From: the human T2T-CHM13v2.0 reference genome, Homo sapiens
Length of the DNA stretch: 64,000 nt
Reading direction: 5' to 3'
Assembly (NCBI GenBank): GCA_009914755.4
Contig: CP086569.2
Coordinates: 27,712,001 to 27,776,000, forward strand
The notes beneath the pieces were generated by a model. The model did not search any database. It was not told the origin of the DNA and worked only from the letters and a program-made list of their open reading frames with translations. Position numbers and translations under genes: made by a program. Below, in pieces: positions 7,701 to 64,000 of the stretch. The first letter of the stretch is position 1, and every line of letters starts with the position of its first letter.

Positions 7701-7862
7701 GAGTGGAGTGTGGTGGACTGGAGTGGAGTGGAGTTGAGTGGAGTGGATTGGATTGAAATAGAGCGGAGCAGAGTGGAATGGAATTGAATCACATGGTATT
7801 GAATCAAATGGAATGGAATTAAATCGAATGAAAAAACGGAATCAAAAGCAAACGAATGGAGT
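4742..7862 (+). repeat. HOR copy B (3121 bp)
   Basis: Landmark at 4742, next at 7863. The first ~2 kb gives translated strings identical to copy C (e.g. 4986..5516 = 8107..8637; 5038..5595 = 8159..8716). Confidence 0.8.
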
Positions 7863-10800: not shown

Positions 10801-10983
10801 GGAGTGGAATGCAGAGGACAGGAGTGGAGTGTGGTGGACTGGAGTGCAGTGGAGTTGAGTGGAGTGGATTGGATTGAAATAGAGCGGAGCAGAGTGGAAT
10901 GGAATTGAATCACATGGTATTGAATCAAATCGAATGGAATTAAATCGAATGAAAAAACGGAATCAAAAGCAAACGAATGGAGT
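7863..10983 (+). repeat. HOR copy C (3121 bp), near-identical tandem duplicate of B
   Basis: Landmark at 7863, next at 10984. Offset to B is 3121 bp, with identical 106/176/185/81-aa ORF strings. Confidence 0.8.
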
Positions 10984-23453: not shown

Positions 23454-26400
23454 CAAACCACATTGGTTAGACTGACATCGAATAATATCAAAAGAAATGT
23501 GGTGAAGTGGAGTGGAGTGTACTGAAATGGGGTGGAATGAAATTGAATGGAGTGGAGTGGAGTCTACTGGAGTGGAATGGAATGGAATGGAAAGGAATGG
23601 AATAGAATGGAGTGAAGTGCAGTGCAGTGAAATGGAGTGGAAAGGAATGGAATGGAAAGAATTGAATCAAATGGAACCGAAGTGAATCGAATCTAATGAA
23701 ATTGAACGCAAATTGTGGAATGAGTAGAATCGAAAAAGATGTATTCAAATGGCAACAAATAAAATTGAATGGAATGCGGTGAGGTGGAGGGGATTGGAAT
23801 GGATTTGAATGGAATGTGGTGTAATTGAATTGAATGGAGTGGAGTGGAGTGAACTGGAGTGGAATGGAATGGAATGGGCAGACATGGAATTGAAAGGCGT
23901 GGAGTGGAGTGGAATTGAGAGGAGTGGAATGGAGTAGGGTGGATTGTGGTGGAGAATAATGGAAAAGAGTGGAGTGGAATGGAACGGATTGGAGTGGAGT
24001 GGAATGGAATGGAATTGAGTGAAGTGGAGTGTAGTGGAATGGAGAGTAATGGAGTGGAGTGGACTGGAGTGGAGTAGATTGCAGTGCATTGGACTGTAGG
24101 GGATGGAAGTGGATTGGAGTCCATAGGAGTGGAGTGGAATGGAATGGAATGGAGTGGAATGGACTGGAACGGAATGGATTTAAATGGCAGGGAATCAAAT
24201 CGAATTGAATCATATTGAATCAAGTCGAATCGAGTGGAGGAAAGAAATCGAATGAAATCGAATGGAATGAATTGAATGGAGTCGAATGTCAACCATGGAA
24301 TCAAAAGTAATGTGGTAAAGTGGAGTGGAGTGGAGTGTTATGGAGTGGAATGGAATGGGGTGACATGGAATTGAATACAGTGGAGAGGAGTGGAGTGGAT
24401 TGGGCTAGAGTTGAACGGAAAGGGAAGGAATGGAACTAAATGGAGTGGAGTGGAATGGAGTGGAATGGAATGGAATGGAATGGAATGGAACGGAATGGAG
24501 CAAAATGGAATCGAATCACATGGAACTGAATGAAACCGAATTGAATGAAATTCAATGGAGAAAATGGAATCAAATGGAATCAAATCGAACGGATTCGAAT
24601 GTCATTGAATGGAATCGAAAGGAATGCAGTGAGGTGGGGTTGAGTGGAATGGAGTGGAATGGAATGGGATGAATGGAATTGAATGGAGTGGAGTGGAATG
24701 GAATGGAATGGAAAGGACTGGAATTGAACAAAATGGAGTGTAGTAGAATGGAGTGGATTGGAGTGGAGTGCAGGGGAGTGCAGTGGAATGAAGAGGAGTG
24801 TAGTTGAATGGAATGGAATGTATGGAATGTACTGCAATAGAATGGATAAGAAAGGAATGGAATGGAATCGCATGGAATTGAATAGAATCAAATCGAATTG
24901 AATAGAATCAAATGGAAAAAATGGAGTCAAATGGAATCGAATGGCATAGAATCGAACGGTTTTGAATGGCAGTGAATGGAAACGAATGGAATGCGATGAA
25001 GTGGAGCGCAGTGGAGTGGAAAGGAGTGCAATGGAATAGGGTGGAACTGCATTTAATGGAACAGAGTGGATTGGAGTGGACTGGAGTGGAATGGAATGGG
25101 AAGGAATGGGATTGAAAGGAGTGGTGTGCAGTGGAGTGGAGTGGCATGGAGTGGAGTGGAGTGGAATGGAGTGGAATGGAATGGAGTGGAATGGAGTGGA
25201 TTGGAATGGAATGGAGTGCAGAGGAATGGAATGGAATGGTATAGAGTGGACAGGAATGGAGTGGAGTGGATTGGAATGGAATGGAATGGAATGGAATGGA
25301 ACTGAATGGACTGGAATGGAATGCAATAGAATGGAATCACAGGGAATCAAATTGGATTGAATCGAATCGAAAGGAAAAAAATGAAATCAAATGAAATTGA
25401 ATGGAATCGAAATGAATGTAAACAATGGAATCCAATGGAATCAAATGGAATCGAATCAAATGGTTTTGAATGGCGTAAAATGAAATCGCAAGGAAGACAG
25501 TGAATTGGAGTGGAGTGGAATAGAGAGGAATGAATTGGAATGGAGTGGATTGGAATGGAGTGGATTCCAGTGGAGTGGAGTGGATTGGATTTTAATGGAA
25601 TGGAATAGACTGGATTGCAGTGGTGTAGATTGCAGTGGATTGGAGTGGAGAGGAATGGAGTGGAGTGAAGTCGAGTTGAGTGGAATGGAATGGAGTGGAG
25701 CAGAGTGGAATGCAAAAGAATGAAGTGGATTGGTGTGGAATGGAATGGCGTGGAATGGAGTAGAATAGAATGGAATGGAATCGCATGGAAGGATATCAAA
25801 TCAAATGGAATCGAACGAAAATTATGAATCCAATGGAATCGAAAGGATTCCAAAGGAACGGATTCGAAAGGCATTTAATGGAATGGAAAGGTATGCAGTG
25901 AAGTGGAGTGGAGTGGAGGGGATTGGTTTAGAGTGAAATGGGGTGGATTGGAACACTATGTTGTGGAGTGGAGTGTAGTGGATCGGAGTGGAGTGCCGTG
26001 GAGTGGACTAGAGTGGGGTGGAGTGGAGTGCATTGGAGTGGAATGGAGTGGAGTGGGGTGGAATGGAATGGAATGGCATCAAATCGCATAGTAATGAGTC
26101 AAACGGAATGAAATAATGGAATCGAAGGCAAACGAATGGAATCGAATTGCACTGATTCTTCTGACTTCGAACAAAATGAAATGAAATGCGGTGAAGTGGA
26201 GTGGAGTGGAATGTATTAGGGTGGAATGGAATTGAATGGTGTGGAGTGGATTGGAGTGCCCAGGAGTGGAATGGGAAGAAATGGAATTGAACGGAGTGGA
26301 GTGGAGTGGAATGGAGGGTAATAGAGTGGAATGGAGTGGAGTGGAGTAGAGTGGAATGGGTTGGAATGGAATGCAGAGGACAGGAGTGGAGTGTGGTGGA

Positions 26401-26545
26401 CTGGAGGGGAGTGGAGTTGAGTGGAGTGGATTGGATTGAAATAGAGCGGAGCAGAGTGGAATGGAATTGAATCATATGGTATTGAATCAAATCGAATGGA
26501 ATTAAATCGAATGAAAAAACGGAATCAAAAGCAAACGAATGGAGT
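23454..26545 (+). repeat. HOR copy H (3092 bp) = copy O; 10-bp deletion marker at ~26110
   Basis: Landmark at 23454, next at 26546. 241-aa string 23488..24213 is identical to 45252..45977 (offset 21764). Confidence 0.8.
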
Positions 26546-29500
26546 CAAACCACATTGGTTAGACTGACATCGAATAATATCAAAAGAAATGCGGTGAAGT
26601 GGAGGGGAGTGTACTGAAATGGGGTGGAATGAAATTGAATGGAGTGGAGTGGAGTGGAGTCTACTGGAGTGGAATGGAATGGAATGGAAAGGAATGGAAT
26701 AGAATGGAGTGAAGTGCAGTGAAGTGAAATGGAGTGGAAAGGAATGGAATGGAAAGAATTGAATCAAATGGAATCGAAGTGAATCGAATCTAATGAAATT
26801 GAACGCAATATGTGGAATGAGTAGAATCGAAAAAGATGGATTCAAATGGCAACAAATAAAATTGAATGGAATGCGGTGAGGTGGAGGGGATTGGAATGGA
26901 GTTGAATGGAATGTGGTGTAATTGAATTGAATGGAGTGGAGTGGAGTGAACTGGAGTGGAATGGAATGGAATGGGCAGGCATGGAATTGAAAGGCGTGGA
27001 GTGGAGTGGAATTGAGAGGAGTGGAATGGAGTAGGGTGGATTGTGGTGGAGAATAATGGAAAAGAGTGGAGTGGAATGGAACGGATTGGAGTGGAGTGGA
27101 ATGGAATGGAATTGAGTGAAGTGGAGTGTAGTGGAATGGAGAGTAATGGAGTGGAGTGGACTGGAGTGGAGTAGATTGCAGTGCATTGGACTGTAGGGGA
27201 TAGAAGTGGCTTGGAGTCCATAGGAGTGGAGTGGAATGGAATGGAATGGAGTGGAATGGATTGGAACGGAATGGAATGGAATGGATTTAAATGGCAGGGA
27301 ATCAAATCGAATTGAATCATATTGAATCAAGTCTAATCGAGTGGAGGAAAGAAATCGAATGAAATCGAATGGAATGAATTGAATGGAGTCGAATGTCAAC
27401 CATGGAATCAAAAGTAATGTGGTAAAGTGGAGTGGAGTGGCGTGTTATGGAGAGGAATGGAATGGGGTGACATGGAATTGAATACATTGGAGAGGAGTGG
27501 AGTGGATTGGGGTAGAGTTGAACGGAAAGGGAAGGAATGGAACTAAATGGAGTGGAGTGGAATGGAGTGGAATGGAATGGAATGGAATGGAATGGAACGG
27601 AATGGAGTGCAATGGAATAGAATCACATGGAACTGAATGAAACCGAATTGAATGAAATTCAATTGAGAAAATGGAACAAATGGAATCAAATCGAACGGAT
27701 TCGAATGTCATTGAATGGAATCGAAAGGAATGCAGTGAGGTGGGGTTGAGTGGAATGGAGTGGAATGGAATGGGATGAATGGAATTGAATGGAGTGGAGT
27801 GGAATGGAATGGAATGGAAAGGACTGGAATTGAACAAAATGGAGTGTAGTAGAATGGAGTGGATTGGAGTGGAGTGCAGGGGAGTGCAGTGGAATGAAGA
27901 GGAGTGTAGTTGAATGGAATGGAATGTATGGAATGTACTGGAATAGAATGGATAAGAAAGGAATGGAATGGAATCGCATGGAATTGAATAGAATCAAATC
28001 GAATTGAATAGAATCCAATGGAAAAAATGGAGTCAAATGGAATCGAATGGCATAGAATCGAACGGTTTTGAATGGCAGTGAATGGAAACGAATGGAATGC
28101 GATGAAGTGGAGCAGAGTGGAGTGGAAAGGAGTGCAATGGAATAGGGTGGAACTGAATTTAATGGAACAGAGTGGATTGGAGTGGACTGGAGTGGAATGG
28201 AATGGGAAGGAATGGGATTGAAAGGAGTGGCGTGCAGTGGACTGGAGTGGCATGGAGTGGAGTGGAGTGGAATGGAGTGGAATGGAATGGAGTGGAATGG
28301 AGTGGATTGGAATGGAATGGAGTGCAGGGGAATGGAATGGAATGGTATAGAGTGGACAGGAATGGAGTGGAGTGGATTGGAATGGAATGGAATGGAATGG
28401 AATGGAACTGAATGGACAGGAATGGAATGGAATAGAATGGAATCACAGGGAATCAAATTGGATTGAATCGAATCGAATGTAAAAAATGAAATCAAATTAA
28501 ATTGAATGGAATCGAAATGAATGTAAAGAATGGAATCCAATGGAATCAAATGGAGTCGAATCAAATGGTTTTGAATGGCGTAAAATGAAATCGCGAGGAA
28601 GGCAGTGAATTGGAGTGGAGTGGAATAGAGAGGAATGAATTGGAATGGAGTGGAGTGGAATGGAGTGGATTCCAGTGGAGTGGAGTGGATTGGATTTTAA
28701 TGGAATGGAATAGACTGGATTGGAGTGGTGTAGAGTGCAGTGGATTGGATTGGAGAGGAATGGAGTGGAGTGAAGTAGAGTTGAGTGGAATGGAATGGAG
28801 AGGAGCAGAGTGGAATGCAAAAGAATGAAGTGGATTGGTGTGGAATGGAATGGCGTGGAATGGAGTGGAATAGAATGGAATGGAATCGCATGGAAGGATA
28901 TCAAATCCAATGGAATCGAACGAAAATTTTGAATCCAATGGAATCGAAAGGATTCCAAAGGAACGGATTCGAAAGGCATTTAATGGAATGGAAAGGTATG
29001 CAGTGAAGGTTAGTGGAGTGGAGTGGATTGTTTTAGAGTGAAATGGGGTGGATTGGAACACTATGTGGTGGAGTGGAGTGTAGTGGATCGGAGTGGAGTG
29101 CCGTGGAGTGGACTAGAGTGGGGTGGAGTGGAGTGCATTGGAGTGGAATGGAGTGGAGTGGGGTGGAATGGAATGGAATGGCATCAAATGGCATGGTAAT
29201 GAATCAAATGGAATCAAATGGAATGAAATAATGGAATCGAAGGCAAACGAATGGAATCGAATTGCACTGATTCTACTGACTTCGAAGAAAATGAAATGAA
29301 ATGCGGTGAAGTGGAGTGGAGTGGAATGTATTAGGGTGGAATGGAATTGAATGGTGTGGAGTGGAGTGGAGTGCCCAGGAGTGGAATGGGAAGAAATGGA
29401 ATTGAACGGAGTGGAGTGGAGTGGAATGGAGGGTAATGGAGTGGAATGGAGTGGAGTGGAGTAGAGTGGAATGGGTTGGAGTGGAATGCAGAGGACAGGA

Positions 29501-29660
29501 GTGGAGTGTTGTGGACTGGAGTGGAGTGGTGTTGAGTGGAGTGGATTGGATTGAAATAGAGCGGAGCAGAGTGGAATGGAATTGAATCACATGGTATTGA
29601 ATCAAATCGAATGGAATTAAATCGAATGAAAAAACGGAATCAAAAGCAAACGAATGGAGT
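26546..29660 (+). repeat. HOR copy I (3115 bp) = copy Q; no 10-bp deletion
   Basis: Landmark at 26546, next at 29661. Strings 27445..27837, 27686..28564 and 28497..28979 match 52310.., 52551.., 53362.. (offset 24865). Confidence 0.8.
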
Positions 29661-38800: not shown

Positions 38801-39003
38801 GGAGTAGAGTGGAATGGGTTGGAATGGAATGCAGAGGACAGGAGTGCAGTGTGGTGGACTGGAGTGGAGTGGAGTTGAGTGGAGTGGATTGGATTGAAAT
38901 AGAGCGGAGCAGAGTGGAATGGAATTGAATCACATGGTATTGAATCAAATCGAATGGAATTAAATCGAATGAAAAAACGGAATCAAAAGCAAACGAACGG
39001 AGT
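35887..39003 (+). repeat. HOR copy L (3117 bp) = copy F; 10-bp deletion marker at ~38570
   Basis: Landmark at 35887, next at 39004. Confidence 0.8.
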
Positions 39004-42000
39004 CAAACCACATTGGTTAGACTGACATCGAATAATATCAAAAGAAATGCGGTGAAGTGGAGTGGAGTGTACTGAAATGGGGTGGAATGAAATTGAATGG
39101 AGTGGAGTGGAGTGGAGTCTACTGGAGTGGAATGGAATGGAATGGAAAGGAATGGAATAGAATGGAGTGAAGTGCAGTGCAGTGAAATGGAGTGGAAAGG
39201 AATGGAATGGAAAGAATTGAATCAAATGGAACCGAAGTGAATCGAATCTAATGAAATTGAACGCAAAATGTGGAATGAGTAGAATGGAAAAAGATGGATT
39301 CAAATGGCAACAAATAAAATTGAATGGAATGCGGTGAGGTGGAGGGGATTGGAATGGATTTGAATGGAATGTGGTGTAATTGAATTGAATGGAGTGGAGT
39401 GGAGTGAACTGGAGTGGAATGGAATGGAATGGGCAGACATGGAATTGAAAGGCGTGGAGTGGAGTGGAATTGAGAGGAGTGGAATGGAGTAGGGTGGATT
39501 GTGGTGGAGAATAATGGAAAAGAGTGGAGTGGAATGGAACGGATTGGAGTGGAGTGGAATGGAATGGAATTGAGTGAAGTGGAGTGTAGTGTAATGGAGA
39601 GTAATGGAGTGGAGTGGACTGGAGTAGAGTAGATTGCAATGCATTGGATTGTAGGGGATGGAAGTGGCTTGGAGTCCATAGGAGTGGAGTGGAATGGAAT
39701 GGAATGGAGTGGAATGGACTGGAACGGAATGGAGTGGAATGGATTTAAATGGCAGGGTATCAAATCGAATTGAATCATATTGAATCAAGTCGAATCGAGT
39801 GGAGGAAAGAAATCGAATGAAATCGAATGGAATGAATTGAATGGAGTCGAATGTCAACCATGGAATCAAAAGTAATGTGGTAAAGTGGAGTGGAGTGGAG
39901 TGTTATGGAGTGGAATCGAATGGGGTGACATGGAATTGACTACAGTGGAGAGGAGTGGAGTGGATTGGGCTAGAGTGGAACGGAAAGGGAAGGAATGGAA
40001 CTAAATGGAGTGGAGTGGAATGGAGTGGAATGGAATGGAATGGAATGGAATGGAACGGAATGGAGTAAAATGGAATCGAATCACATGGAACTGAATGAAA
40101 CCGAATTGAATGAAATTCAATGGAGAAAATGGAATCAAATGGAATCAAATCGAACGGATTCGAATGTCATTGAATGGAATCGAAAGGAATGCAGTGAGGT
40201 GGGGTTGAGTGGAATGGAGTGGAATGGAATGGGATGAATGGAATTGAATGGAGTGGAGTGGAATGGAATGGAATGGAAAGGACTGGAATTAAACAAAATG
40301 GAGTGTAGTAGAATGGAGTGGATTGGAGTGGAGTGCAGGGGAGTGCAGTGGAATGAAGAGGAGTGTAGTTGAATGGAATGGAATGTATGGAATGTACTGC
40401 AATAGAATGGATAAGAAAGGAATGGAATGGAATCGCATGGAATTGAATAGAATCAAATCGAATTGAATAGAATCAAATGGAAAAAATGGAGTCAAATGGA
40501 ATCGAATGGCATAGAATCGAACGGTTTTGAATGGCAGTGAATGGAAACGAATGGAATGCGATGAAGTGGAGCGCAGTGGAGTGGAAACGAGTGCAATGGA
40601 ATAGGGTGGAACTGCATTTAATGGAAAAGAGTGGATTGGAGTGGACTGGAGTGGAATGGAATGGGAAGGAATGGGATTGAAAGGAGTGGCTAGCAGTGGA
40701 GTGGAGTGGCATGGAGTGGAGTGGAGTGGAATGGAGTGGAATGGAATGGAGTGGAATGGAGTGGATTGGAATGGAATGGAGTGCAGAGGAATGGAATGGA
40801 ATGGTATAGAGTGGACAGGAATGGAGTGGAGCGGATTGGAATGGAATGGAATGGAATGGAATGGAACTGAATGGACTGGAATGGAATGGAATAGAATAGA
40901 ATCACAGGGAATCAAATTGGATTGAATCGAATCGAAAGGAAAAAAATGAAATCAAATGAAATTGAATGGAATCGAAATGAATGTAAACAATGGAATCCAA
41001 TGGAATCAAATGGAATCGAATCAAATGGTTTTGAATGGCGTAAAATGAAATCGCGAAGAAGGCAGTGAATTGGAGTGGAGTGGAATAGAGAGGAATGAAT
41101 TGGAATGGAGTGGATTGGAATAGAGTGGATTCCAGTGGAGTGGAGTGGATTGGATTTTAATGGAACGGAATAGACTGGATTGGAGTGGTGTAGATTGCAG
41201 TGGATTGGAGTGGAGAGGAATGGAGTGGAGTGAAGTCGAGTTGAGTGGAATGGAAAGGAGTGGAGCAGAGTGGAATGCAAAAGAATGAAGTGGATTGGTG
41301 TGGAATGGAATGGCGTGGAATGGAGTGGAATAGAATGGAATGGAATCGCATGGAAGGATATCAAATCCAATGGAATCGAAGGAAAATTATGAATCCAATG
41401 GAATCGAAAGGATTCCAAAGGAACGGATTCGAAAGGCCTTTAATGGAATGGAAAGGTATGCAGTGAAGTGGAGTGGACTGGAGTGGATTGTTTTAGAGTG
41501 AAATGGGGTGGATTGGAACACTATGTGGTGGAGTGGAGTGTAGTGGATCGGAGTGGAGTGCCGTGGAGTGGACTAGAGTAGGGTGGAGTGGAGTGCATTG
41601 GAGTGGAATGGAGTGGAGTGGGGTGGAATGGAAAGGAATGATATCAAATCGCATGGTAATGAATCAAATGGAATGAAATAATGGAATCGAAGGCAAACGA
41701 ATGGAATCGAATTGCACTGATTCTACTGACTTCGAAGAAAATGAAATGAAACGCGGTGAAGTGGAGTGGAGTGGAATGTATTAGGGTGGAATGGAATTGA
41801 ATGGTGTGGAGTGGAGTGGAGTGCCCAGGAGTGGAATGGGAAGAAATGGAATTGAACGGAGTGGAGTGGAGTGGAATGGAGGGTAATGGCGTGGAATGGA
41901 GTGGAGTGGAGTAGAGTGGAATGGGTTGGAATGGAATGCAGAGGACAGGAGTGCAGTGTGGTGGACTGGAGTGGAGTGGAGTTGAGTGGAGTGGATTGGA

Positions 42001-42110
42001 TTGAAATAGAGCGGAGCAGAGTGGAATGGAATTGAATCACATGGTATTGAATCAAATCGAATGGAATTAAATCGAATGAAAAAACGGAATCAAAAGCAAA
42101 CGAACGGAGT
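39004..42110 (+). repeat. HOR copy M (3107 bp) = copy G
   Basis: Landmark at 39004, next at 42111. Confidence 0.8.
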
Positions 42111-45217: not shown

Positions 45218-48200
45218 CAAACCACATTGGTTAGACTGACATCGAATAATATCAAAAGAAATGTGGTGAAGTGGAGTGGAGTGTACTGAAATGGGGTGGA
45301 ATGAAATTGAATGGAGTGGAGTGGAGTCTACTGGAGTGGAATGGAATGGAATGGAAAGGAATGGAATAGAATGGAGTGAAGTGCAGTGCAGTGAAATGGA
45401 GTGGAAAGGAATGGAATGGAAAGAATTGAATCAAATGGAACCGAAGTGAATCGAATCTAATGAAATTGAACGCAAATTGTGGAATGAGTAGAATCGAAAA
45501 AGATGTATTCAAATGGCAACAAATAAAATTGAATGGAATGCGGTGAGGTGGAGGGGATTGGAATGGATTTGAATGGAATGTGGTGTAATTGAATTGAATG
45601 GAGTGGAGTGGAGTGAACTGGAGTGGAATGGAATGGAATGGGCAGACATGGAATTGAAAGGCGTGGAGTGGAGTGGAATTGAGAGGAGTGGAATGGAGTA
45701 GGGTGGATTGTGGTGGAGAATAATGGAAAAGAGTGGAGTGGAATGGAACGGATTGGAGTGGAGTGGAATGGAATGGAATTGAGTGAAGTGGAGTGTAGTG
45801 GAATGGAGAGTAATGGAGTGGAGTGGACTGGAGTGGAGTAGATTGCAGTGCATTGGACTGTAGGGGATGGAAGTGGATTGGAGTCCATAGGAGTGGAGTG
45901 GAATGGAATGGAATGGAGTGGAATGGACTGGAACGGAATGGATTTAAATGGCAGGGAATCAAATCGAATTGAATCATATTGAATCAAGTCGAATCGAGTG
46001 GAGGAAAGAAATCGAATGAAATCGAATGGAATGAATTGAATGGAGTCGAATGTCAACCATGGAATCAAAAGTAATGTGGTAAAGTGGAGTGGAGTGGAGT
46101 GTTATGGAGTGGAATGGAATGGGGTGACATGGAATTGAATACAGTGGAGAGGAGTGGAGTGGATTGGGCTAGAGTTGAACGGAAAGGGAAGGAATGGAAC
46201 TAAATGGAGTGGAGTGGAATGGAGTGGAATGGAATGGAATGGAATGGAATGGAACGGAATGGAGCAAAATGGAATCGAATCACATGGAACTGAATGAAAC
46301 CGAATTGAATGAAATTCAATGGAGAAAATGGAATCAAATGGAATCAAATCGAACGGATTCGAATGTCATTGAATGGAATCGAAAGGAATGCAGTGAGGTG
46401 GGGTTGAGTGGAATGGAGTGGAATGGAATGGGATGAATGGAATTGAATGGAGTGGAGTGGAATGGAATGGAATGGAAAGGACTGGAATTGAACAAAATGG
46501 AGTGTAGTAGAATGGAGTGGATTGGAGTGGAGTGCAGGGGAGTGCAGTGGAATGAAGAGGAGTGTAGTTGAATGGAATGGAATGTATGGAATGTACTGGA
46601 ATAGAATGGATAAGAAAGGAATGGAATGGAATCGCATGGAATTGAATAGAATCAAATCGAATTGAATAGAATCCAATGGAAAAAATGGAGTCAAATGGAA
46701 TCGAATGGCATAGAATCGAACGGTTTTGAATGGCAGTGAATGGAAACGAATGGAATGCGATGAAGTGGAGCGCAGTGGAGTGGAAAGGAGTGCAATGGAA
46801 TAGGGTGGAACTGCATTTAATGGAACAGAGTGGATTGGAGTGGACTGGAGTGGAATGGAATGGGAAGGAATGGGATTGAAAGGAGTGGTGTGCAGTGGAG
46901 TGGAGTGGCATGGAGTGGAGTGGAGTGGAATGGAGTGGAATGGAATGGAGTGGAATGGAGTGGATTGGAATGGAATGGAGTGCAGAGGAATGGAATGGAA
47001 TGGTATAGAGTGGACAGGAATGGAGTGGAGTGGATTGGAATGGAATGGAATGGAATGGAATGGAACTGAATGGACTGGAATGGAATGCAATAGAATGGAA
47101 TCACAGGGAATCAAATTGGATTGAATCGAATCGAAAGGAAAAAAATGAAATCAAATGAAATTGAATGGAATCGAAATGAATGTAAACAATGGAATCCAAT
47201 GGAATCAAATGGAATCGAATCAAATGGTTTTGAATGGCGTAAAATGAAATCGCAAGGAAGACAGTGAATTGGAGTGGAGTCGAATAGAGAGGAATGAATT
47301 GGAATGGAGTGGATTGGAATGGAGTGGATTCCAGTGGAGTGGAGTGGATTGGATTTTAATGGAATGGAATAGACTGGATTGCAGTGGTGTAGATTGCAGT
47401 GGATTGGAGTGGAGAGGAATGGAGTGGAGTGAAGTCGAGTTGAGTGGAATGGAATGGAGTGGAGCAGAGTGGAATGCAAAAGAATGAAGTGGATTGGTGT
47501 GGAATGGAATGGCGTGGAATGGAGTAGAATAGAATGGAATGGAATCGCATGGAAGGATATCAAATCAAATGGAATCGAACGAAAATTATGAATCCAATGG
47601 AATCGAAAGGATTCCAAAGGAACGGATTCGAAAGGCATTTAATGGAATGGAAAGGTATGCAGTGAAGTGGAGTGGAGTGGAGGGGATTGTTTTAGAGTGA
47701 AATGGGGTGGATTGGAACACTATGTTGTGGAGTGGAGTGTAGTGGATCGGAGTGGAGTGCCGTGGAGTGGACTAGAGTGGGGTGGAGTGGAGTGCATTGG
47801 AGTGGAATGGAGTGGAGTGGGGTGGAATGGAATGGAATGGCATCAAATCGCATAGTAATGAGTCAAACGGAATGAAATAATGGAATCGAAGGCAAACGAA
47901 TGGAATCGAATTGCACTGATTCTTCTGACTTCGAACAAAATGAAATGAAATGCGGTGAAGTGGAGTGGAGTGGAATGTATTAGGGTGGAATGGAATTGAA
48001 TGGTGTGGAGTGGATTGGAGTGCCCAGGAGTGGAATGGGAAGAAATGGAATTGAACGGAGTGGAGTGGAGTGGAATGGAGGGTAATAGAGTGGAATGGAG
48101 TGGAGTGGAGTAGAGTGGAATGGGTTGGAATGGAATGCAGAGGACAGGAGTGGAGTGTGGTGGACTGGAGGGGAGTGGAGTTGAGTGGAGTGGATTGGAT

Positions 48201-48309
48201 TGAAATAGAGCGGAGCAGAGTGGAATGGAATTGAATCATATGGTATTGAATCAAATCGAATGGAATTAAATCGAATGAAAAAACGGAATCAAAAGCAAAC
48301 GAATGGAGT
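45218..48309 (+). repeat. HOR copy O (3092 bp) = copy H
   Basis: Landmark at 45218, next at 48310. 10-bp deletion marker at ~47880. Confidence 0.8.
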
Positions 48310-51300
48310 CAAACCACATTGGTTAGACTGACATCGAATAATATCAAAAGAAATGCGGTGAAGTGGAGGGGAGTGTACTGAAATGGGGTGGAATGAAATT
48401 GAATGGAGTGGAGTGGAGTGGAGTCTACTGGAGTGGAATGGAATGGAATGGAAAGGAATGGAATAGAATGGAGTGAAGTGCAGTGAAGTGAAATGGAGTG
48501 GAAAGGAATGGAATGGAAAGAATTGAATCAAATGGAATCGAAGTGAATCGAATCTAATGAAATTGAACGCAATATGTGGAATGAGTAGAATCGAAAAAGA
48601 TGGATTCAAATGGCAACAAATAAAATTGAATGGAATGCGGTGAGGTGGAGGGGATTGGAATGGAGTTGAATGGAATGTGGTGTAATTGAATTGAATGGAG
48701 TGGAGTGGAGTGAACTGGAGTGGAATGGAATGGAATGGGCAGGCATGGAATTGAAAGGCGTGGAGTGGAGTGGAATTGAGAGGAGTGGAATGGAGTAGGG
48801 TGGATTGTGGTGGAGAATAATGGAAAAGAGTGGAGTGGAATGGAACGGATTGGAGTGGAGTGGAATGGAATGGAATTGAGTGAAGTGGAGTGTAGTGGAA
48901 TGGAGAGTAATGGAGTGGAGTGGACTGGAGTGGAGTAGATTGCAGTGCATTGGACTGTAGGGGATAGAAGTGGCTTGGAGTCCATAGGAGTGGAGTGGAA
49001 TGGAATGGAATGGAGTGGAATGGATTGGAACGGAATGGAATGGAATGGATTTAAATGGCAGGGAATCAAATCGAATTGAATCATATTGAATCAAGTCTAA
49101 TCGAGTGGAGGAAAGAAATCGAATGAAATCGAATGGAATGAATTGAATGGAGTCGAATGTCAACCATGGAATCAAAAGTAATGTGGTAAAGTGGAGTGGA
49201 GTGGCGTGTTATGGAGAGGAATGGAATGGGGTGACATGGAATTGAATACATTGGAGAGGAGTGGAGTGGATTGGGGTAGAGTTGAACGGAAAGGGAAGGA
49301 ATGGAACTAAATGGAGTGGAGTGGAATGGAGTGGAATGGAATGGAATGGAATGGAATGGAACGGAATGGAGTGCAATGGAATAGAATCACATGGAACTGA
49401 ATGAAACCGAATTGAATGAAATTCAATTGAGAAAATGGAACAAATGGAATCAAATCGAACGGATTCGAATGTCATTGAATGGAATCGAAAGGAATGCAGT
49501 GAGGTGGGGTTGAGTGGAATGGAGTGGAATGGAATGGGATGAATGGAATTGAATGGAGTGGAGTGGAATGGAATGGAATGGAAAGGACTGGAATTGAACA
49601 AAATGGAGTGTAGTAGAATGGAGTGGATTGGAGTGGAGTGCAGGGGAGTGCAGTGGAATGAAGAGGAGTGTAGTTGAATGGAATGGAATGTGTGGAATGT
49701 ACTGGAATAGAATGGATAAGAAAGGAATGGAATGGAATCGCATGGAATTGAATAGAATCAAATCGAATTGAATAGAATCCAATGGAAAAAATGGAGTCAA
49801 ATGGAATCGAATGGCATAGAATCGAACGGTTTTGAATGGCAGTGAATGGAAACGAATGGAATGCGATGAAGTGGAGCGCAGTGGAGTGGAAAGGAGTGCA
49901 ATGGAATAGGGTGGAACTGCATTTAATGGAACAGAGTGGATTGGAGTGGACTGGAGTGGAATGGAATGGGAAGGAATGGGATTGAAAGGAGTGGTGTGCA
50001 GTGGAGTGGAGTGGCATGGAGTGGAGTGGAGTGGAATGGAGTGGAATGGAATGGAGTGGAATGGAGTGGATTGGAATGGAATGGAGTGCAGAGGAATGGA
50101 ATGGAATGGTATAGAGTGGACAGGAATGGAGTGGAGTGGATTGGAATGGAATGGAATGGAATGGAACTGAATGGACTGGAATGGAATGCAATAGAATGGA
50201 ATCACAGGGAATCAAATTGGATTGAATCGAATCGAAAGGAAAAAAATGAAATCAAATGAAATTGAATGGAATCGAAATGAATGTAAACAATGGAATCCAA
50301 TGGAATCAAATGGAATCGAATCAAATGGTTTTGAATGGCGTAAAATGAAATCGCAAGGAAGACAGTGAATTGGAGTGGAGTGGAATAGAGAGGAATGAAT
50401 TGGAATGGAGTGGATTGGAATGGAGTGGATTCCAGTGGAGTGGAGTGGATTGGATTTTAATGGAATGGAATAGACTGGATTGCAGTGGTGTAGATTGCAG
50501 TGGATTGGAGTGGAGAGGAATGGAGTGGAGTGAAGTCGAGTTGAGTGGAATGGAATGGAGTGGAGCAGAGTGGAATGCAAAAGAATGAAGTGGATTGGTG
50601 TGGAATGGAATGGCGTGGAATGGAGTAGAATAGAATGGAATGGAATCGCATGGAAGGATATCAAATCAAATGGAATCGAACGAAAATTATGAATCCAATG
50701 GAATCGAAAGGATTCCAAAGGAACGGATTCGAAAGGCATTTAATGGAATGGAAAGGTATGCAGTGAAGTGGAGTGGAGTGGAGGGGATTGTTTTAGAGTG
50801 AAATGGGGTGGATTGGAACACTATGTTGTGGAGTGGAGTGTAGTGGATCGGAGTGGAGTGCCGTGGAGTGGACTAGAGTGGGGTGGAGTGGAGTGCATTG
50901 GAGTGGAATGGAGTGGAGTGGGGTGGAATGGAATGGAATGGCATCAAATCGCATAGTAATGAGTCAAACGGAATGAAATAATGGAATCGAAGGCAAACGA
51001 ATGGAATCGAATTGCACTGATTCTTCTGACTTCGAACAAAATGAAATGAAATGCGGTGAAGTGGAGTGGAGTGGAATGTATTAGGGTGGAATGGAATTGA
51101 ATGGTGTGGAGTGGATTGGAGTGCCCAGGAGTGGAATGGGAAGAAATGGAATTGAACGGAGTGGAGTGGAGTGGAATGGAGGGTAATAGAGTGGAATGGA
51201 GTGGAGTGGAGTAGAGTGGAATGGGTTGGAATGGAATGCAGAGGACAGGAGTGGAGTGTGGTGGACTGGAGGGGAGTGGAGTTGAGTGGAGTGGATTGGA

Positions 51301-51410
51301 TTGAAATAGAGCGGAGCAGAGTGGAATGGAATTGAATCATATGGTATTGAATCAAATCGAATGGAATTAAATCGAATGAAAAAACGGAATCAAAAGCAAA
51401 CGAATGGAGT
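48310..51410 (+). repeat. HOR copy P (3101 bp). Recombinant HOR: I-type head (48.31-~49.6 kb) and H/O-type tail (~49.9-51.41 kb). Product of an unequal exchange.
   Basis: The I-type-specific 130-aa string at 49209..49601 is identical to 27445..27837 and 52310..52702. From ~49.9 kb it carries H/O-type variants (HTTPFNP, LNAVPPYS, RSTSS, ILLHS as in 46344..47114). The H-type 10-bp deletion is at ~50980. Strings 50212..50739 and 50873..51355 match 47111.. and 47772.. Confidence 0.65.
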
Positions 51411-54400
51411 CAAACCACATTGGTTAGACTGACATCGAATAATATCAAAAGAAATGCGGTGAAGTGGAGGGGAGTGTACTGAAATGGGGTGGAATGAAAT
51501 TGAATGGAGTGGAGTGGAGTGGAGTCTACTGGAGTGGAATGGAATGGAATGGAAAGGAATGGAATAGAATGGAGTGAAGTGCAGTGAAGTGAAATGGAGT
51601 GGAAAGGAATGGAATGGAAAGAATTGAATCAAATGGAATCGAAGTGAATCGAATCTAATGAAATTGAACGCAATATGTGGAATGAGTAGAATCGAAAAAG
51701 ATGGATTCAAATGGCAACAAATAAAATTGAATGGAATGCGGTGAGGTGGAGGGGATTGGAATGGAGTTGAATGGAATGTGGTGTAATTGAATTGAATGGA
51801 GTGGAGTGGAGTGAACTGGAGTGGAATGGAATGGAATGGGCAGGCATGGAATTGAAAGGCGTGGAGTGGAGTGGAATTGAGAGGAGTGGAATGGAGTAGG
51901 GTGGATTGTGGTGGAGAATAATGGAAAAGAGTGGAGTGGAATGGAACGGATTGGAGTGGAGTGGAATGGAATGGAATTGAGTGAAGTGGAGTGTAGTGGA
52001 ATGGAGAGTAATGGAGTGGAGTGGACTGGAGTGGAGTAGATTGCAGTGCATTGGACTGTAGGGGATAGAAGTGGCTTGGAGTCCATAGGAGTGGAGTGGA
52101 ATGGAATGGAATGGAGTGGAATGGATTGGAACGGAATGGAATGGAATGGATTTAAATGGCAGGGAATCAAATCGAATTGAATCATATTGAATCAAGTCTA
52201 ATCGAGTGGAGGAAAGAAATCGAATGAAATCGAATGGAATGAATTGAATGGAGTCGAATGTCAACCATGGAATCAAAAGTAATGTGGTAAAGTGGAGTGG
52301 AGTGGCGTGTTATGGAGAGGAATGGAATGGGGTGACATGGAATTGAATACATTGGAGAGGAGTGGAGTGGATTGGGGTAGAGTTGAACGGAAAGGGAAGG
52401 AATGGAACTAAATGGAGTGGAGTGGAATGGAGTGGAATGGAATGGAATGGAATGGAATGGAACGGAATGGAGTGCAATGGAATAGAATCACATGGAACTG
52501 AATGAAACCGAATTGAATGAAATTCAATTGAGAAAATGGAACAAATGGAATCAAATCGAACGGATTCGAATGTCATTGAATGGAATCGAAAGGAATGCAG
52601 TGAGGTGGGGTTGAGTGGAATGGAGTGGAATGGAATGGGATGAATGGAATTGAATGGAGTGGAGTGGAATGGAATGGAATGGAAAGGACTGGAATTGAAC
52701 AAAATGGAGTGTAGTAGAATGGAGTGGATTGGAGTGGAGTGCAGGGGAGTGCAGTGGAATGAAGAGGAGTGTAGTTGAATGGAATGGAATGTATGGAATG
52801 TACTGGAATAGAATGGATAAGAAAGGAATGGAATGGAATCGCATGGAATTGAATAGAATCAAATCGAATTGAATAGAATCCAATGGAAAAAATGGAGTCA
52901 AATGGAATCGAATGGCATAGAATCGAACGGTTTTGAATGGCAGTGAATGGAAACGAATGGAATGCGATGAAGTGGAGCAGAGTGGAGTGGAAAGGAGTGC
53001 AATGGAATAGGGTGGAACTGAATTTAATGGAACAGAGTGGATTGGAGTGGACTGGAGTGGAATGGAATGGGAAGGAATGGGATTGAAAGGAGTGGCGTGC
53101 AGTGGACTGGAGTGGCATGGAGTGGAGTGGAGTGGAATGGAGTGGAATGGAATGGAGTGGAATGGAGTGGATTGGAATGGAATGGAGTGCAGGGGAATGG
53201 AATGGAATGGTATAGAGTGGACAGGAATGGAGTGGAGTGGATTGGAATGGAATGGAATGGAATGGAATGGAACTGAATGGACAGGAATGGAATGGAATAG
53301 AATGGAATCACAGGGAATCAAATTGGATTGAATCGAATCGAATGTAAAAAATGAAATCAAATTAAATTGAATGGAATCGAAATGAATGTAAAGAATGGAA
53401 TCCAATGGAATCAAATGGAATCGAATCAAATGGTTTTGAATGGCGTAAAATGAAATCGCGAGGAAGGCAGTGAATTGGAGTGGAGTGGAATAGAGAGGAA
53501 TGAATTGGAATGGAGTGGAGTGGAATGGAGTGGATTCCAGTGGAGTGGAGTGGATTGGATTTTAATGGAATGGAATAGACTGGATTGGAGTGGTGTAGAG
53601 TGCAGTGGATTGGATTGGAGAGGAATGGAGTGGAGTGAAGTAGAGTTGAGTGGAATGGAATGGAGTGGAGCAGAGTGGAATGCAAAAGAATGAAGTGGAT
53701 TGGTGTGGAATGGAATGGCGTGGAATGGAGTGGAATAGAATGGAATGGAATCGCATGGAAGGATATCAAATCCAATGGAATCGAACGAAAATTTTGAATC
53801 CAATGGAATCGAAAGGATTCCAAAGGAACGGATTCGAAAGGCATTTAATGGAATGGAAAGGTATGCAGTGAAGGTTAGTGGAGTGGAGTGGATTGTTTTA
53901 GAGTGAAATGGGGTGGATTGGAACACTATGTGGTGGAGTGGAGTGTAGTGGATCGGAGTGGAGTGCCGTGGAGTGGACTAGAGTGGGGTGGAGTGGAGTG
54001 CATTGGAGTGGAATGGAGTGGAGTGGGGAGGAATGGAATGGAATGGCATCAAATGGCATGGTAGTGAATCAAATGGAATCAAATGGAATGAAATAATGGA
54101 ATCGAAGGCAAACGAATGGAATCGAATTGCACTGATTCTACTGACTTCGAAGAAAATGAAATGAAATGCGGTGAAGTGGAGTGGAGTGGAATGTATTAGG
54201 GTGGAATGGAATTGAATGGTGTGGAGTGGAGTGGAGTGCCCAGGAGTGGAATGGGAAGAAATGGAATTGAACGTAGTGGAGTGGAGTGGAATGGAGGGTA
54301 ATGGAGTGGAATGGAGTGGAGTGGAGTAGAGTGGAATGGGTTGGAGTGGAATGCAGAGGACAGGAGTGGAGTGTTGTGGACTGGAGTGGAGTGGTGTTGA

Positions 54401-54526
54401 GTGGAGTGGATTGGATTGAAATAGAGCGGAGCAGAGTGGAATGGAATTGAATCACATGGTATTGAATCAAATCGAATGGAATTAAATCGAATGAAAAAAC
54501 GGAATCAAAAGCAAACGAATGGAGTC
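51411..54526 (+). repeat. HOR copy Q (3116 bp) = copy I
   Basis: Landmark at 51411, next at 54527. No 10-bp deletion (~54070 has both caaatggaat units). Confidence 0.8.
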
Positions 54527-57500: not shown

Positions 57501-57696
57501 AGTGGAATGGGTTGGAGTGGAATGCAGAGGACAGGAGTGGAGTGCAGTGGACTGGAGTGGAGTGGAGTTGAGTGGAGTGGATTGGATTGAAATAGAGCGG
57601 AGCAGAGTGGAATGGAATTGAATCACATGGTATTTAATCAAATCGAATGGAATAAAATCGAATGAAAAAATGGAATCAAAAGCAAACGAATGGAGT
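54527..57696 (+). repeat. HOR copy R (3170 bp), diverged subtype. The first ~0.25 kb is still J-head-like, then many private substitutions and indels.
   Basis: Compared with the canonical form, 10 bp are missing at ~55745 ('GLSGMEWDEWN' instead of 'GLSGMEWNGMG') and ~15 bp at ~55830. Variants include 'tccaatggcatggaatcg' where the canonical form is 'tcgaatggcatagaatcg'. Confidence 0.7.
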
Positions 57697-60600: not shown

Positions 60601-60856
60601 ATTGAACGGAGTGGAGTGGAGTGGAATGGAGGGTAATGGAGTGGAATGGAGTGGAGTGGAGTAGAGTGGAATGGGTTAGAGTGGAATGCAGAGGACAGGA
60701 GTGGAGTGCAGTGGACTGGAGTGGAGTGGAGTGGAGTGGATTGGATTGAAACAGAGCGGAGCAGAGTGGAATGGAATTGAATCACATGGTATTGAATCAA
60801 ATCGAATGGAATTAAATCGAATGAAAAAATGGAATGAAAAGCAAACGAATGGAGTC
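57697..60856 (+). repeat. HOR copy S (3160 bp), diverged subtype related to R
   Basis: Landmark at 57697, next at 60857. Shares R-type indels (e.g. 'GLSGMEWDEWN' at ~58900). Confidence 0.7.
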
Positions 60857-63394: not shown

Positions 63395-64000
63395 TCACAT
63401 CGTTTCGACTGACATTGAATAAAATCAAAAGAAATGCGTTGAAGTGGAGTGGAGTGGAATGAAATGGGGTGGAATGGAATTGAATGGAGTTGATTGCAGT
63501 GGAGTCGACTGGAGTGGAACGGAATGGAATGGGAAGGAATGGAATTAAATGGAGTGGAGCGCAGTACAGTGAAATGGAGTGGAATGGTATGGAATGGAAT
63601 GGAATGGAATTGCATAGAATAGAATCGAATTGAATCTAATGTAACTGAACGGAAAAAATGGAAATGAATAGAATCAAAAACAATGGATTCGACTGGCATC
63701 TAATAGAATGAAATGGAATGCGGTGAGGTGGAGTGGATTGTAATGGAGTTGAATGGAATGGGGTGTAATTGAATTGAATGGAGTGGAGTGGAGTGAACTG
63801 GAGTGGAATGGAATGGAATGGGCAGGCATGGAATTGAAAGGCGTGGAGTGGTGTGGAATTGAGAGGAGTGGAATGGAGTAGGGTGGATTGTAGTGGAGAA
63901 TATTGGAAAAGAGTGGAGTGGAATGGAATGGAATGGAGTGGAGTGGAATGGAATGGAATTGAGTGAAGTGGAGTGTAGTGGAATGGAGAGTAATGGAGTG
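63395..64000 (+). repeat. Partial HOR copy (5' ~0.6 kb), truncated by the window end
   Basis: Sub-block f restart 'aatggaatgcggtgaggtggagtgg' at ~63713, followed by sequence matching 1967-2270. Confidence 0.6.

What the first reader, a model, noticed from the sequence alone, without database searches (positions are those of the whole stretch)
48310..51410. Chimeric HOR copy P: direct footprint of an unequal sister-chromatid/homolog exchange
In the first copy the order is H then I. In the second copy it is O(=H), P, Q(=I). P starts as I-type: the I-specific 130-aa string 49209..49601 is identical to 27445..27837 and 52310..52702. P ends as H/O-type: HTTPFNP, LNAVPPYS, RSTSS and ILLHS variants from ~49.9 kb, the H-lineage 10-bp deletion at ~50980, and 50212..50739 and 50873..51355 matching 47111.. 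and 47772... An I-head/H-tail recombinant sitting between an H and an I is exactly the product expected from an out-of-register crossover between H and I. The exchange point is bracketed to ~49.6-49.9 kb.
Basis: seen in the sequence. Interest (0 to 1): 0.65.

Follow-up and report, generated by a model that had tools for sequence, protein, structure and literature searches.

The report
Hybrid satellite repeat from unequal exchange
One 3.1-kb unit of a pentamer-derived satellite array is a clean two-part hybrid of its two neighbours, the expected scar of a one-unit misaligned recombination; it is real and well resolved, but it is a textbook process.

Summary
The window is an (AATGG)n-derived satellite built of 3.1-kb units. 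Six units (u04-u09) recur as eight (u10-u17).

Unit P (48310-51410) matches the I/Q type at all 23 diagnostic events from 48356 to 49440. It matches the H/O type at all 39 events from 49878 to 51340. There is one switch and no interleaving (chance about 3e-17). P sits between an H-type unit (O) and an I-type unit (Q). A 2410-bp block, 47282-49691, recurs exactly at 50383-52792. That is what a one-unit out-of-register homologous exchange produces.

- The exchange interval is 49441-49877, not 49.6-49.9 kb.
- The 10-bp deletion is at 50960 and is not specific to the H lineage.

New here:
- A second hybrid of the same kind: u13 (39004-42110) has a G-type head and an F-type tail, with the switch in 41737-41953.
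- Both switches lie in the longest perfectly identical tract between their parent types (437 and 217 bp; joint chance about 0.01).

Not resolved:
- crossover versus replication template switch;
- sister chromatid versus homologue;
- gain in copy 2 versus loss in copy 1.

This is ordinary satellite dynamics, so interest is low.

The parts
23454..26545 (.). Unit H (u08), copy 1: H-type parent lineage
   Evidence: differs from O by 4 events.
26546..29660 (.). Unit I (u09), copy 1: I-type parent lineage, directly after H with no hybrid between them
   Evidence: differs from Q by 5 events, all in the tail.
45218..48309 (.). Unit O (u15), copy 2: H-type
48310..51410 (.). Unit P (u16): hybrid extra unit with an I-type head and an H-type tail
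   Evidence: 23 I-type events followed by 39 H-type events, with a single switch.
48310..49440 (.). P head, I/Q-type tract
   Evidence: 0 differences from I and Q, 38 differing columns from H and O. It carries 10 I-derived states.
49441..49877 (.). Exchange interval: 437 bp with no fixed H/I difference, where O and Q are identical. It is the longest H/I identity tract in the unit.
   Evidence: inter-site gap of 438 bp against 223 bp for the next longest.
49878..51410 (.). P tail, H/O-type tract
   Evidence: 6 differing columns from H/O and 58-59 from I/Q. It carries 16 H-derived states.
49692..49692 (.). P-private substitution A>G (all 16 other units have A)
   Evidence: This argues that P is an independently evolving copy and not an assembly splice.
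50141..50142 (.). P-private loss of one pentamer (TGGAA) relative to H, O, I and Q
   Evidence: alignment columns 1883-1887. u01-u03 show the same length state.
51411..54525 (.). Unit Q (u17), copy 2: I-type
47282..49691 (.). First copy of the exact 2410-bp duplicate (O tail plus P head)
   Evidence: identical to 50383-52792 at a lag of 3101 bp.
50383..52792 (.). Second copy of the exact 2410-bp duplicate (P tail plus Q head)
39004..42110 (.). Unit u13: second hybrid extra unit, G-type head and F-type tail, lying between F (u12) and G (u14)
   Evidence: 55 G-type events, then 2 F-specific states at 41954 and 42105.
41737..41953 (.). Exchange interval of the u13 event: 217 bp, the longest F/G identity tract
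   Evidence: gap of 218 bp against 181 bp for the next longest. The exact block 38630-40072 equals 41737-43179.

Best explanation
P marks a single out-of-register, homology-dependent exchange between an I-type unit on one DNA molecule and the adjacent H-type unit on the other, misaligned by exactly one 3.1-kb unit. An unequal sister-chromatid crossover is the most likely form.

The exchange resolved inside a 437-bp tract (49441-49877) where the two unit types are identical. The recombinant molecule reads H-type (O), then I-head/H-tail (P), then I-type (Q). Put another way, the 3.1-kb segment 'H tail plus I head' is tandemly duplicated and the array gains one unit.

**Shown by the sequence:**
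- the two-tract ancestry of P;
- the extra copy relative to the paralogous H-I pair;
- the ancestral-type junctions on both sides of P;
- the location of the switch.

**Inferred, not shown:**
- that the event was a crossover;
- which partner molecule was involved;
- that the unit was gained in copy 2.

The same process made u13 (G-head/F-tail) three units upstream.
For: - **Single switch.** 23 I-type then 39 H-type diagnostic events, P = 3.4e-17 under random order. The head has 0 differences from I/Q and 38 differing columns from H/O. The tail has 6 differing columns from H/O and 58-59 from I/Q.
- **True recombinant.** P carries derived states of both parents in separate tracts: 10 I-derived in the head and 16 H-derived in the tail.
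- **Copy number.** It is +1 relative to copy 1 (H directly followed by I).
- **Junctions.** Both junctions of P equal the ancestral H|I junction. 47282-49691 equals 50383-52792 exactly (2410 bp), and 47691-49691 equals 25927-27927 exactly.
- **Location of the switch.** It lies in the longest uninterrupted H/I identity tract (438 bp against 223 bp for the next).
- **Independent second case.** u13 has the same topology, and its switch is again in the longest F/G identity tract (218 bp). The joint chance under uniformly placed breakpoints is 0.141 x 0.070, about 0.01.
- **Tract lengths.** Both are at or above the ~134-232 bp threshold measured for mitotic recombination in cultured mammalian cells. 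The 437-bp tract also falls in the 300-500 bp range estimated for human meiosis (PMC2583991).
- **Not a splice.** P has two private variants, 49692 A>G and a 5-bp deletion at 50141.
- **Standard model.** Unequal exchange is the accepted model for satellite arrays, and hybrid units are documented in alpha satellite (PMC9549924; PMC4022460; bioRxiv 10.1101/2022.12.01.518724).
Against: - Nothing in the sequence contradicts the exchange.
- The sequence cannot tell a reciprocal crossover from a replication or break-induced template switch, or from reinsertion of an excised 3.1-kb circle. All give the same product.
- **Polarity is open.** H, O and P each carry only private variants in the tail, and I, Q and P are identical in the head. 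P could therefore predate the 18.7-kb duplication and have been lost tracelessly from copy 1.
- **Ages are not separable.** The duplicates of the P event differ by 3 events in 3101 bp. The copy 1 and copy 2 unit pairs differ by 2-5 events per 3.1 kb.
- **One site is unexplained.** At 49780 O, P, I and Q have C while H and most other units have A. This needs one extra mutation or a short conversion.
- No reads or other haplotypes were available to validate the assembly. The P-junction pattern was not found in the metagenome or prokaryotic genome collections.
Confidence: 0.8

Rival explanations
1. The product is the same, but it was made by replication rather than by a reciprocal crossover. A stalled or broken nascent strand re-invaded one unit out of register (replication slippage, or break-induced replication with a template switch) within the 437-bp identical tract, and re-copied 3.1 kb.
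For: - It gives exactly the observed structure and the same dependence on homology.
- The two +1 events and the 18.7-kb duplication have statistically indistinguishable divergences (2-5 events per 3.1 kb), which would fit one episode with several template switches.
- The authors of the Y-chromosome assemblies state that replication slippage and gene conversion cannot be excluded for comparable arrays (supplement of bioRxiv 10.1101/2022.12.01.518658).
Against: - No positive evidence favours it over a crossover.
- There are no microhomology junctions, inserted bases or mutation clusters at the switch. The 437-bp zone holds a single private substitution, at 49692.
Confidence: 0.2
2. The polarity is reversed. 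The hybrids P and u13 formed by unequal exchange before the multi-unit duplication, so the ancestral block had eight units. Copy 1 later lost both by in-register-looking deletions: an H x P-tail or P-head x I exchange, and a u13 x G exchange. Such deletions leave no scar.
For: - Private variants form a star phylogeny. In the tail, H has 25926 G, O has 47281 C and P has the 5-bp deletion. In the head, I, Q and P are identical.
- Divergence of the P-event duplicates (3 in 3101 bp) is about the same as between copy 1 and copy 2.
Against: - It needs two further deletion events in the same copy, four events in all against two. The gain scenario is therefore more parsimonious.
- It does not change the origin of P, which is still an H/I unequal exchange.
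Confidence: 0.25
3. There were two steps. An extra unit of pure H or pure I type arose first. A gene-conversion tract of 1.1-1.5 kb or more from the neighbouring type then overwrote half of it.
For: Gene conversion is an accepted homogenising process in satellites (PMC9549924). Site 49780, where O carries the I-type C, hints that short conversions occur nearby.
Against: - A conversion tract has two ends. Only one switch exists inside P.
- The second end would have to coincide with the natural H|I unit junction, to within 117 bp (51341-51456), so that 2410 bp across the junction remain an exact duplicate.
- It requires two events where one suffices.
- The same coincidence would have to recur for u13.
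Confidence: 0.04
4. It is an assembly artefact: a false join within the 437-bp identical tract created a spurious extra unit.
For: Satellite arrays are prone to assembly errors, and no read data could be examined here.
Against: - P has two private variants absent from O, Q, H and I: 49692 A>G and the pentamer loss at 50141. O has its own private variant at 47281. A splice of O and Q reads would be identical to its sources.
- The identical tract is far shorter than typical long reads.
- An independent second hybrid, u13, has its own private variant at 40400.
Confidence: 0.04

Closest known systems
Unequal-crossover model of tandem-repeat evolution (Smith 1976), and the hybrid monomers or structural-variant HORs of human alpha satellite
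   Same: - An out-of-register homologous exchange changes copy number by whole units.
- It leaves a hybrid unit whose two parts come from adjacent unit types.
- Whether a 'hybrid' is seen depends on the cyclic start chosen for the unit (PMC9549924). The same holds here: in a register starting at 49441 there is no hybrid, only a tandem duplicate of 'H tail plus I head'.
   Different: - The units are 3.1-kb pentamer-derived nested tandem repeats, not 171-bp monomers.
- The parents differ at 62 events, so the switch is mapped unusually cleanly.
Non-allelic homologous recombination between low-copy repeats, with minimal efficient processing segments (MEPS)
   Same: The exchange resolves in a stretch of uninterrupted identity. 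Both events here use the longest such stretch available (437 and 217 bp), comparable with published MEPS estimates (PMC2583991).
   Different: - The substrates are adjacent satellite units 3.1 kb apart, not dispersed segmental duplications.
- There is no gene-dosage consequence.
- With only two events, the preference for long tracts is suggestive (about 0.01) and not established.
HSat3-type (CATTC)n/(AATGG)n satellites with kb-scale nested tandem repeats; possibly the human Y DYZ18 / '3.1 kbp' / '2.7 kbp' arrays at the Yq11/Yq12 boundary
   Same: - The array derives from the pentamer AATGG, with a 3.1-kb unit.
- A homogeneous array is followed by units about 96.5% identical to it and then by more diverged units. 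This resembles the published description of DYZ18 followed by a 3.1-kbp array of degenerate DYZ18 copies at 95.8% identity (bioRxiv 10.1101/2022.12.01.518658).
- Unequal sister-chromatid exchange is the mechanism proposed for Yq12 arrays.
   Different: - Identity with DYZ18 could not be tested, because no human reference or DYZ18 consensus is reachable with these tools.
- The classical HSat3 10-mer CAACCCGAAT is absent and AGTGG is as common as AATGG.
- The unique insertion in u18 and u19 is about 70 bp, against 200-300 bp in the paper's description.
- Treat this as a lead only.

Membership tests
Hybrid repeat unit produced by unequal (out-of-register) homologous exchange | One extra unit relative to the paralogous or ancestral arrangement | tested here: met
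   Copy 1 has H then I. Copy 2 has O, P, Q. The lag is 21764 bp for H to O and 24865 bp for I to Q.
Hybrid repeat unit produced by unequal (out-of-register) homologous exchange | The extra unit has the head of the downstream parent type and the tail of the upstream parent type | tested here: met
   The head 48310-49440 is identical to I/Q. The tail 49878-51410 is H/O-type.
Hybrid repeat unit produced by unequal (out-of-register) homologous exchange | A single switch of ancestry | tested here: met
   23 I-type then 39 H-type events, 0 exceptions, P = 3.4e-17.
Hybrid repeat unit produced by unequal (out-of-register) homologous exchange | Both flanking junctions are of the ancestral type, that is, a perfect tandem duplicate of one period | tested here: met
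   47282-49691 equals 50383-52792 exactly, and 47691-49691 equals 25927-27927 exactly.
Hybrid repeat unit produced by unequal (out-of-register) homologous exchange | The switch lies in uninterrupted homology of MEPS length | tested here: met
   437 bp, the longest H/I identity tract. For u13 it is 217 bp, the longest F/G tract.
Hybrid repeat unit produced by unequal (out-of-register) homologous exchange | A reciprocal deletion product (H-head/I-tail) exists or existed | not testable with these tools
   This needs other haplotypes of the locus. None is present in the window (painting of all units).
Gene-conversion tract without crossover | No change in copy number, and two tract ends within the converted unit | tested here: not met
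   Copy number is +1 and P has only one switch.
Alpha-satellite-style higher-order repeat (discrete monomers of similar length) | The unit is made of a whole number of recognisable monomers of similar length | tested here: not met
   TRF finds only the 5-bp period (64% matches) plus small local 44-bp sub-repeats. The 3.1-kb unit is a nested tandem repeat in the sense of bioRxiv 10.1101/2021.07.12.452052. The 18.7-kb block occurs only twice.
HSat3 (classical human satellite III) | (CATTC)n/(GGAAT)n-derived sequence | tested here: met
   TRF consensus AATGG across 132-63987. Pentamer spectrum.
HSat3 (classical human satellite III) | Interspersed 10-mer CAACCCGA(A/G)T (definition recalled from memory) | tested here: not met
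   0 occurrences of CAACCCGA or its reverse complement TCGGGTTG on the + strand, i.e. neither orientation present in 64 kb.
Human Y-chromosome DYZ18 array | Sequence identity to the DYZ18 consensus or a Y-chromosome assembly | not testable with these tools
   No human reference is available. Circumstantial fit only: the 3.1-kb (AATGG)n unit, and flanking units 96.3-96.6% identical against the published 95.8%.

The most novel reading that the evidence does not exclude
The 18.7-kb six-unit duplication and the two one-unit gains (u13 and P) were not three separate events. They would be one episode of homology-driven repair synthesis that switched template out of register several times, for example break-induced replication slipping within the array. 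Each switch was confined to the longest perfectly identical tract available. The supporting observations are that all three duplications have indistinguishable divergence (about 0.06-0.12%), that both small events sit in the same copy, and that both use the longest identity tract.
Probability: 0.12. Interest if true: 0.4.

Novelty: new member of a known kind. Interest (0 to 1): 0.2.

Why it matters
Satellite arrays are thought to expand, contract and homogenise by unequal exchange. The evidence is usually indirect, from copy-number variation and identity heat maps.

Here the parent unit types differ at 62 events. The exchange can therefore be read directly and mapped to 437 bp, and a second event three units away can be mapped to 217 bp. 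Both fall in the longest uninterrupted identity tract. That is a small in-genome data point suggesting that MEPS-like homology requirements decide where units of a kb-scale satellite can recombine.

If the locus is the male-specific Y, which is an untested lead, the partner must have been the sister chromatid or the same chromatid. The Y phylogeny could then date and polarise the events. None of this changes current models. It illustrates them.

Tried and rejected
1. **P junction elsewhere.** I searched for an I-specific 26-mer, a 410-438 bp gap and an H-specific 35-mer. The pattern is unique to P in the window. It has 0 hits in metagenome contigs and 0 in GTDB genome contigs.
2. **Generic unit-head marker** (CCACATTGGTTAGACTGACATCGAATAATATC).
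   - It occurs once per unit, 20 times in the window.
   - It found 14 short metagenome contigs, L001-L014, and none in prokaryotic genomes.
   - The contigs are 84-98% identical to the window. They look like collapsed short-read assemblies of host contamination. None is close enough to test for P.
3. **Exact-protein look-up** of two mechanical P ORFs, to pull other assemblies: nothing on record.
4. **PRDM9-like motif** CCNCCNTNNCCNC: 0 occurrences on either strand of the window, so there is no hotspot-motif explanation.
5. **Coding potential.** The minus-strand ORFs of up to 251 aa are (HSIPF)n-like translations of stop-free CCATT/CCACT repeats. I did not treat them as genes.
6. **u10 as the hybrid of the 18.7-kb duplication** (u18 head plus u04 tail). 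u10 and u04 differ by 7 events in the first 255 bp and about 6 in the remaining 2.86 kb. But the u10 head also differs from the u18 head at about 5 sites in the first 260 alignment columns (my count from the printed alignment), so the junction is unresolved.
7. **Polarity from shared derived variants.** None exist, so the phylogeny is a star.
8. **Narrowing the breakpoint with site 49780.** This is ambiguous, because O also carries the I-type C.
Full report
**What the window is.** Tandem Repeats Finder reports one 5-bp array (consensus AATGG, 64% matches) over 132-63987. The + strand is strongly G-rich (GC skew about +0.7 throughout).
- AATGG-type and AGTGG-type pentamers are about equally common. 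The classical satellite III 10-mer CAACCCGAAT is absent. TCGA occurs 587 times.
- On top of the pentamer there is a 3.1-kb periodicity. I call them u01 to u18.
- Each unit begins with a non-pentameric marker, CCACATTGGTTAGACTGACATCGAATAATATC (20 copies).
- Kb-scale units derived from a pentamer have been named nested tandem repeats, as distinct from higher-order repeats (bioRxiv 10.1101/2021.07.12.452052). That is the better term here.

**Large-scale layout.** Pairwise distances on a MAFFT alignment of the 17 full units and event counts show a recent multi-unit duplication.
- u05 matches u11 (2 events), u06 matches u12 (4), u07 matches u13 and u14 (5 and 3), u08 (H) matches u15 (O) (4), and u09 (I) matches u17 (Q) (5). 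u04 matches u10 apart from its first 255 bp.
- Six units (u04-u09) therefore recur as eight (u10-u17). The two extra units are u13 or u14, and u16 (P).
- To the right of Q the array is older. u18 and u19 are 96.3-96.6% identical to the consensus and carry an insertion of about 70 bp. From 60856 onward the sequence has a 300-bp deletion, and its second half is only 63-83% identical.

**Checking the observation.**
- 49209-49601 is identical to 27445-27837 and to 52310-52702.
- 50212-50739 differs from 47111 onward at one base (50382).
- 50873-51355 equals 47772 onward.
- The 'amino-acid strings' are minus-strand translations of mechanical ORFs in stop-free CCATT/CCACT repeats. HTTPFNP is indeed confined to H, O and P. 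ILLHS is not diagnostic (50 hits). There is no reason to think anything here is coding.

**Ancestry along P.** I took every alignment column where H = O, I = Q and H differs from I.
- P carries the I/Q state at every such site from 48356 to 49440, and the H/O state at every such site from 49878 to 51340.
- Merging adjacent indel columns gives 62 independent events, which read 23 I then 39 H. The probability of a single switch in a random ordering is 3.4e-17.
- Numerically, the head (48310-49440) has 0 differences from I and Q and 38 differing columns from H and O. The tail (49878-51410) has 6 differing columns from H or O and 58-59 from I or Q.
- The other 12 units polarise the states. The head carries 10 I-derived states and the tail 16 H-derived states. 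P is therefore a true recombinant and not an intermediate or ancestral form.

- The exchange interval is 49441-49877 (437 bp), not 49.6-49.9 kb. From 49441 to 49691 P is identical to O as well as to I and Q, so the '130-aa I-specific string' is I-specific only up to 49440.
- The 10-bp deletion lies after 50960. u06, u07 and u12-u14 share it, so it is not an H-lineage marker on its own.

**Anatomy of the event.**
- The block 47282-49691 (O tail plus P head) recurs exactly at 50383-52792 (P tail plus Q head), 2410 bp at a lag of 3101.
- The block 47691-49691 is also identical to 25927-27927, the H tail plus I head of copy 1.
- Both junctions of P therefore reproduce the ancestral H|I junction. 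The structure is equivalent to a perfect tandem duplication of the 3.1-kb segment 'H tail plus I head'.
- This is what one exchange gives when an I unit pairs with the H unit of the partner molecule: the product reads ...H, I[0..x]+H[x..end], I...
- Whether one sees a 'chimeric unit' or a 'duplicated segment' depends only on the chosen unit start. The same point has been made for hybrid alpha-satellite monomers (PMC9549924).
- P has two private changes, 49692 A>G and the loss of one pentamer at 50141. O has its own private change at 47281. The two 3.1-kb duplicates thus differ by 3 events. This argues against a mis-assembly that spliced O and Q reads.

**A second hybrid, not noted in this finding.**
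- u13 (39004-42110) is G-type at 55 consecutive F-versus-G diagnostic events up to 41736. It then carries the two F-specific states at 41954 and 42105, which are otherwise found only in u06 and u12.
- It lies between F (u12) and G (u14). That is the same topology: upstream type, then downstream-head/upstream-tail, then downstream type.
- Its exchange interval is 41737-41953. The exact block 38630-40072 equals 41737-43179.
- Both extra units of copy 2 are therefore accounted for by the same kind of event.

**Where the exchanges happened.**
- For H against I the switch interval is the longest stretch without a fixed difference: 438 bp, with 223 and 123 next. In copy 2, O and Q are identical over all 437 bp.
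- For F against G the switch interval is again the longest: 218 bp, with 181 next.
- If breakpoints fell uniformly, the chance that both land in the longest interval is 0.141 x 0.070, about 0.01.
- This fits the requirement of homologous recombination for a minimal efficient processing segment. Cutting uninterrupted homology from 232 to 134 bp lowered intrachromosomal recombination 20-fold in mouse cells, and human meiotic estimates are 300-500 bp (PMC2583991).
- With two events this is suggestive only.
- No PRDM9-like 13-mer occurs anywhere in the window.

**What cannot be decided.**
1. *Mechanism subtype.* A reciprocal unequal crossover, a replication or break-induced template switch one unit out of register, and reinsertion of an excised 3.1-kb circle all give this product.
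2. *Partner.* The sequence does not distinguish sister chromatid from homologue.
3. *Polarity.* In the tail, H (25926 G), O (47281 C) and P (5-bp loss) each have only private changes. In the head, I, Q and P are identical. Likewise u07, u13 and u14 form a star.
4. *Relative age.* The divergence of the P duplicates (3 in 3101 bp) and of the u13 duplicates (2 in 3107 bp) matches that between copy 1 and copy 2 (2-5 events per 3.1 kb).

P could therefore have been gained in copy 2 soon after the large duplication. Or it could have existed before and been lost from copy 1 by a scarless exchange. Gain needs fewer events. Either way, P itself originated by an H/I out-of-register exchange.

**Rejected alternatives.**
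- A two-step route (pure duplicate, then gene conversion) would need a conversion-tract end to coincide, within 117 bp, with the natural unit junction, and the same coincidence again for u13. I rate it unlikely.
- An assembly artefact is disfavoured by the private variants. It cannot be excluded without reads.

**Related sequence elsewhere.**
- The P-specific junction pattern is unique in the window and absent from the metagenome and GTDB genome collections.
- The generic unit marker finds 14 short metagenome contigs that are 84-98% identical to the window. They are presumably host contamination assembled from short reads. They show the family exists in independent data but are useless for genotyping P.
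- Exact-protein look-ups of P ORFs found nothing.

**Locus lead (untested).**
- The human Y chromosome carries (AATGG)n-derived satellites DYZ1, DYZ17 and DYZ18 (PMC7767330).
- At the Yq11/Yq12 boundary a DYZ18 array is accompanied by a '3.1 kbp' array of degenerate DYZ18 copies (95.8% identity) and a '2.7 kbp' array (bioRxiv 10.1101/2022.12.01.518658).
- The window's layout resembles this: homogeneous 3.1-kb units, then units at about 96.5%, then a more diverged unit. The contig L001 shows a 2.8-kb spacing of the unit marker.
- I could not compare sequences, so this stays a lead.
- If it is correct there is no homologue, and the exchange was between sister chromatids or within one chromatid. 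That is the mechanism already proposed for Yq12 arrays.

**Verdict.** It is a clean instance of the standard unequal-exchange mechanism of satellite evolution (Smith 1976, as cited in PMC4022460 and PMC9549924). It is well resolved but not surprising. The added value here is the corrected breakpoint, the second hybrid, and the observation that both exchanges used the longest identity tract.

Noticed in passing
window 39004-42110 (switch 41737-41953): u13 is a second hybrid unit. It has a G-type head (55 events) and an F-type tail (F-specific C at 41954 and at 42105), and it lies between F (u12) and G (u14). The exact block 38630-40072 equals 41737-43179.
   Followed up: yes
window 49780, 46674 and 24910: At this column O, P, I, Q and u03 have C, while H and all other units have A. 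O therefore carries the I-type state inside the exchange zone. Either H reverted, or O received a short conversion from P or Q. If A is the ancestral H state, the breakpoint narrows to 49781-49877.
   Followed up: partly
window 24835 (H) and 40400 (u13): H and u13 are the only two units with C at the same alignment column (1446). They lie in different copies and are of different unit types. This is either a parallel mutation or a small conversion.
   Followed up: no
window 10984-11238 and 29661-29895: The heads of u04 and u10 differ by 7 events in 255 bp, including a 20-bp insertion in u04 starting at 11135. The remaining 2.86 kb holds about 6 events. The u10 head is not a recent copy of the u18 head either, so the junction of the 18.7-kb duplication is not explained.
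   Followed up: partly
window 4742-10983 (u02, u03): These adjacent units are nearly identical over their first ~2000 alignment columns (6 differences) but differ at 24 columns in the last ~1170. Most differences are singletons private to one unit. This looks like an older partial homogenisation or exchange. The u01 tail is close to the u04 and u10 tails.
   Followed up: partly
window 54526-64000: This is the edge of the homogeneous array. u18 (54526-57696) and u19 (57697-60855) are 96.3-96.6% identical to the consensus, with an insertion of about 70 bp near consensus position 2550. The next unit (60856 onward) lacks about 300 bp (consensus ~700-1000), and its second half is only 63-83% identical.
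   Followed up: partly
window, every unit start (e.g. 48310-48350); loci L001-L014: Each unit begins with a non-pentameric stretch, CAAACCACATTGGTTAGACTGACATCGAATAATATCAAAAG. The marker occurs in 14 public metagenome contigs, probably host contamination. In L001 it appears twice, 2802 bp apart, which implies a related unit of about 2.8 kb elsewhere.
   Followed up: partly
window 427-544 and the equivalent position in most units (e.g. 50210, 53316): A local 44-bp-period sub-repeat of about 2.5 copies (AATGAAATTGAATGGAATCGAAACGAATGGAAAAAATGAAATCA) recurs once per 3.1-kb unit.
   Followed up: no
window 48554-51355, minus strand: There are stop-free minus-strand ORFs of 160-251 aa with (HSIPF)n-like translations. 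They are a by-product of CCATT/CCACT repeats. No exact match exists in the gene-position collection.
   Followed up: partly
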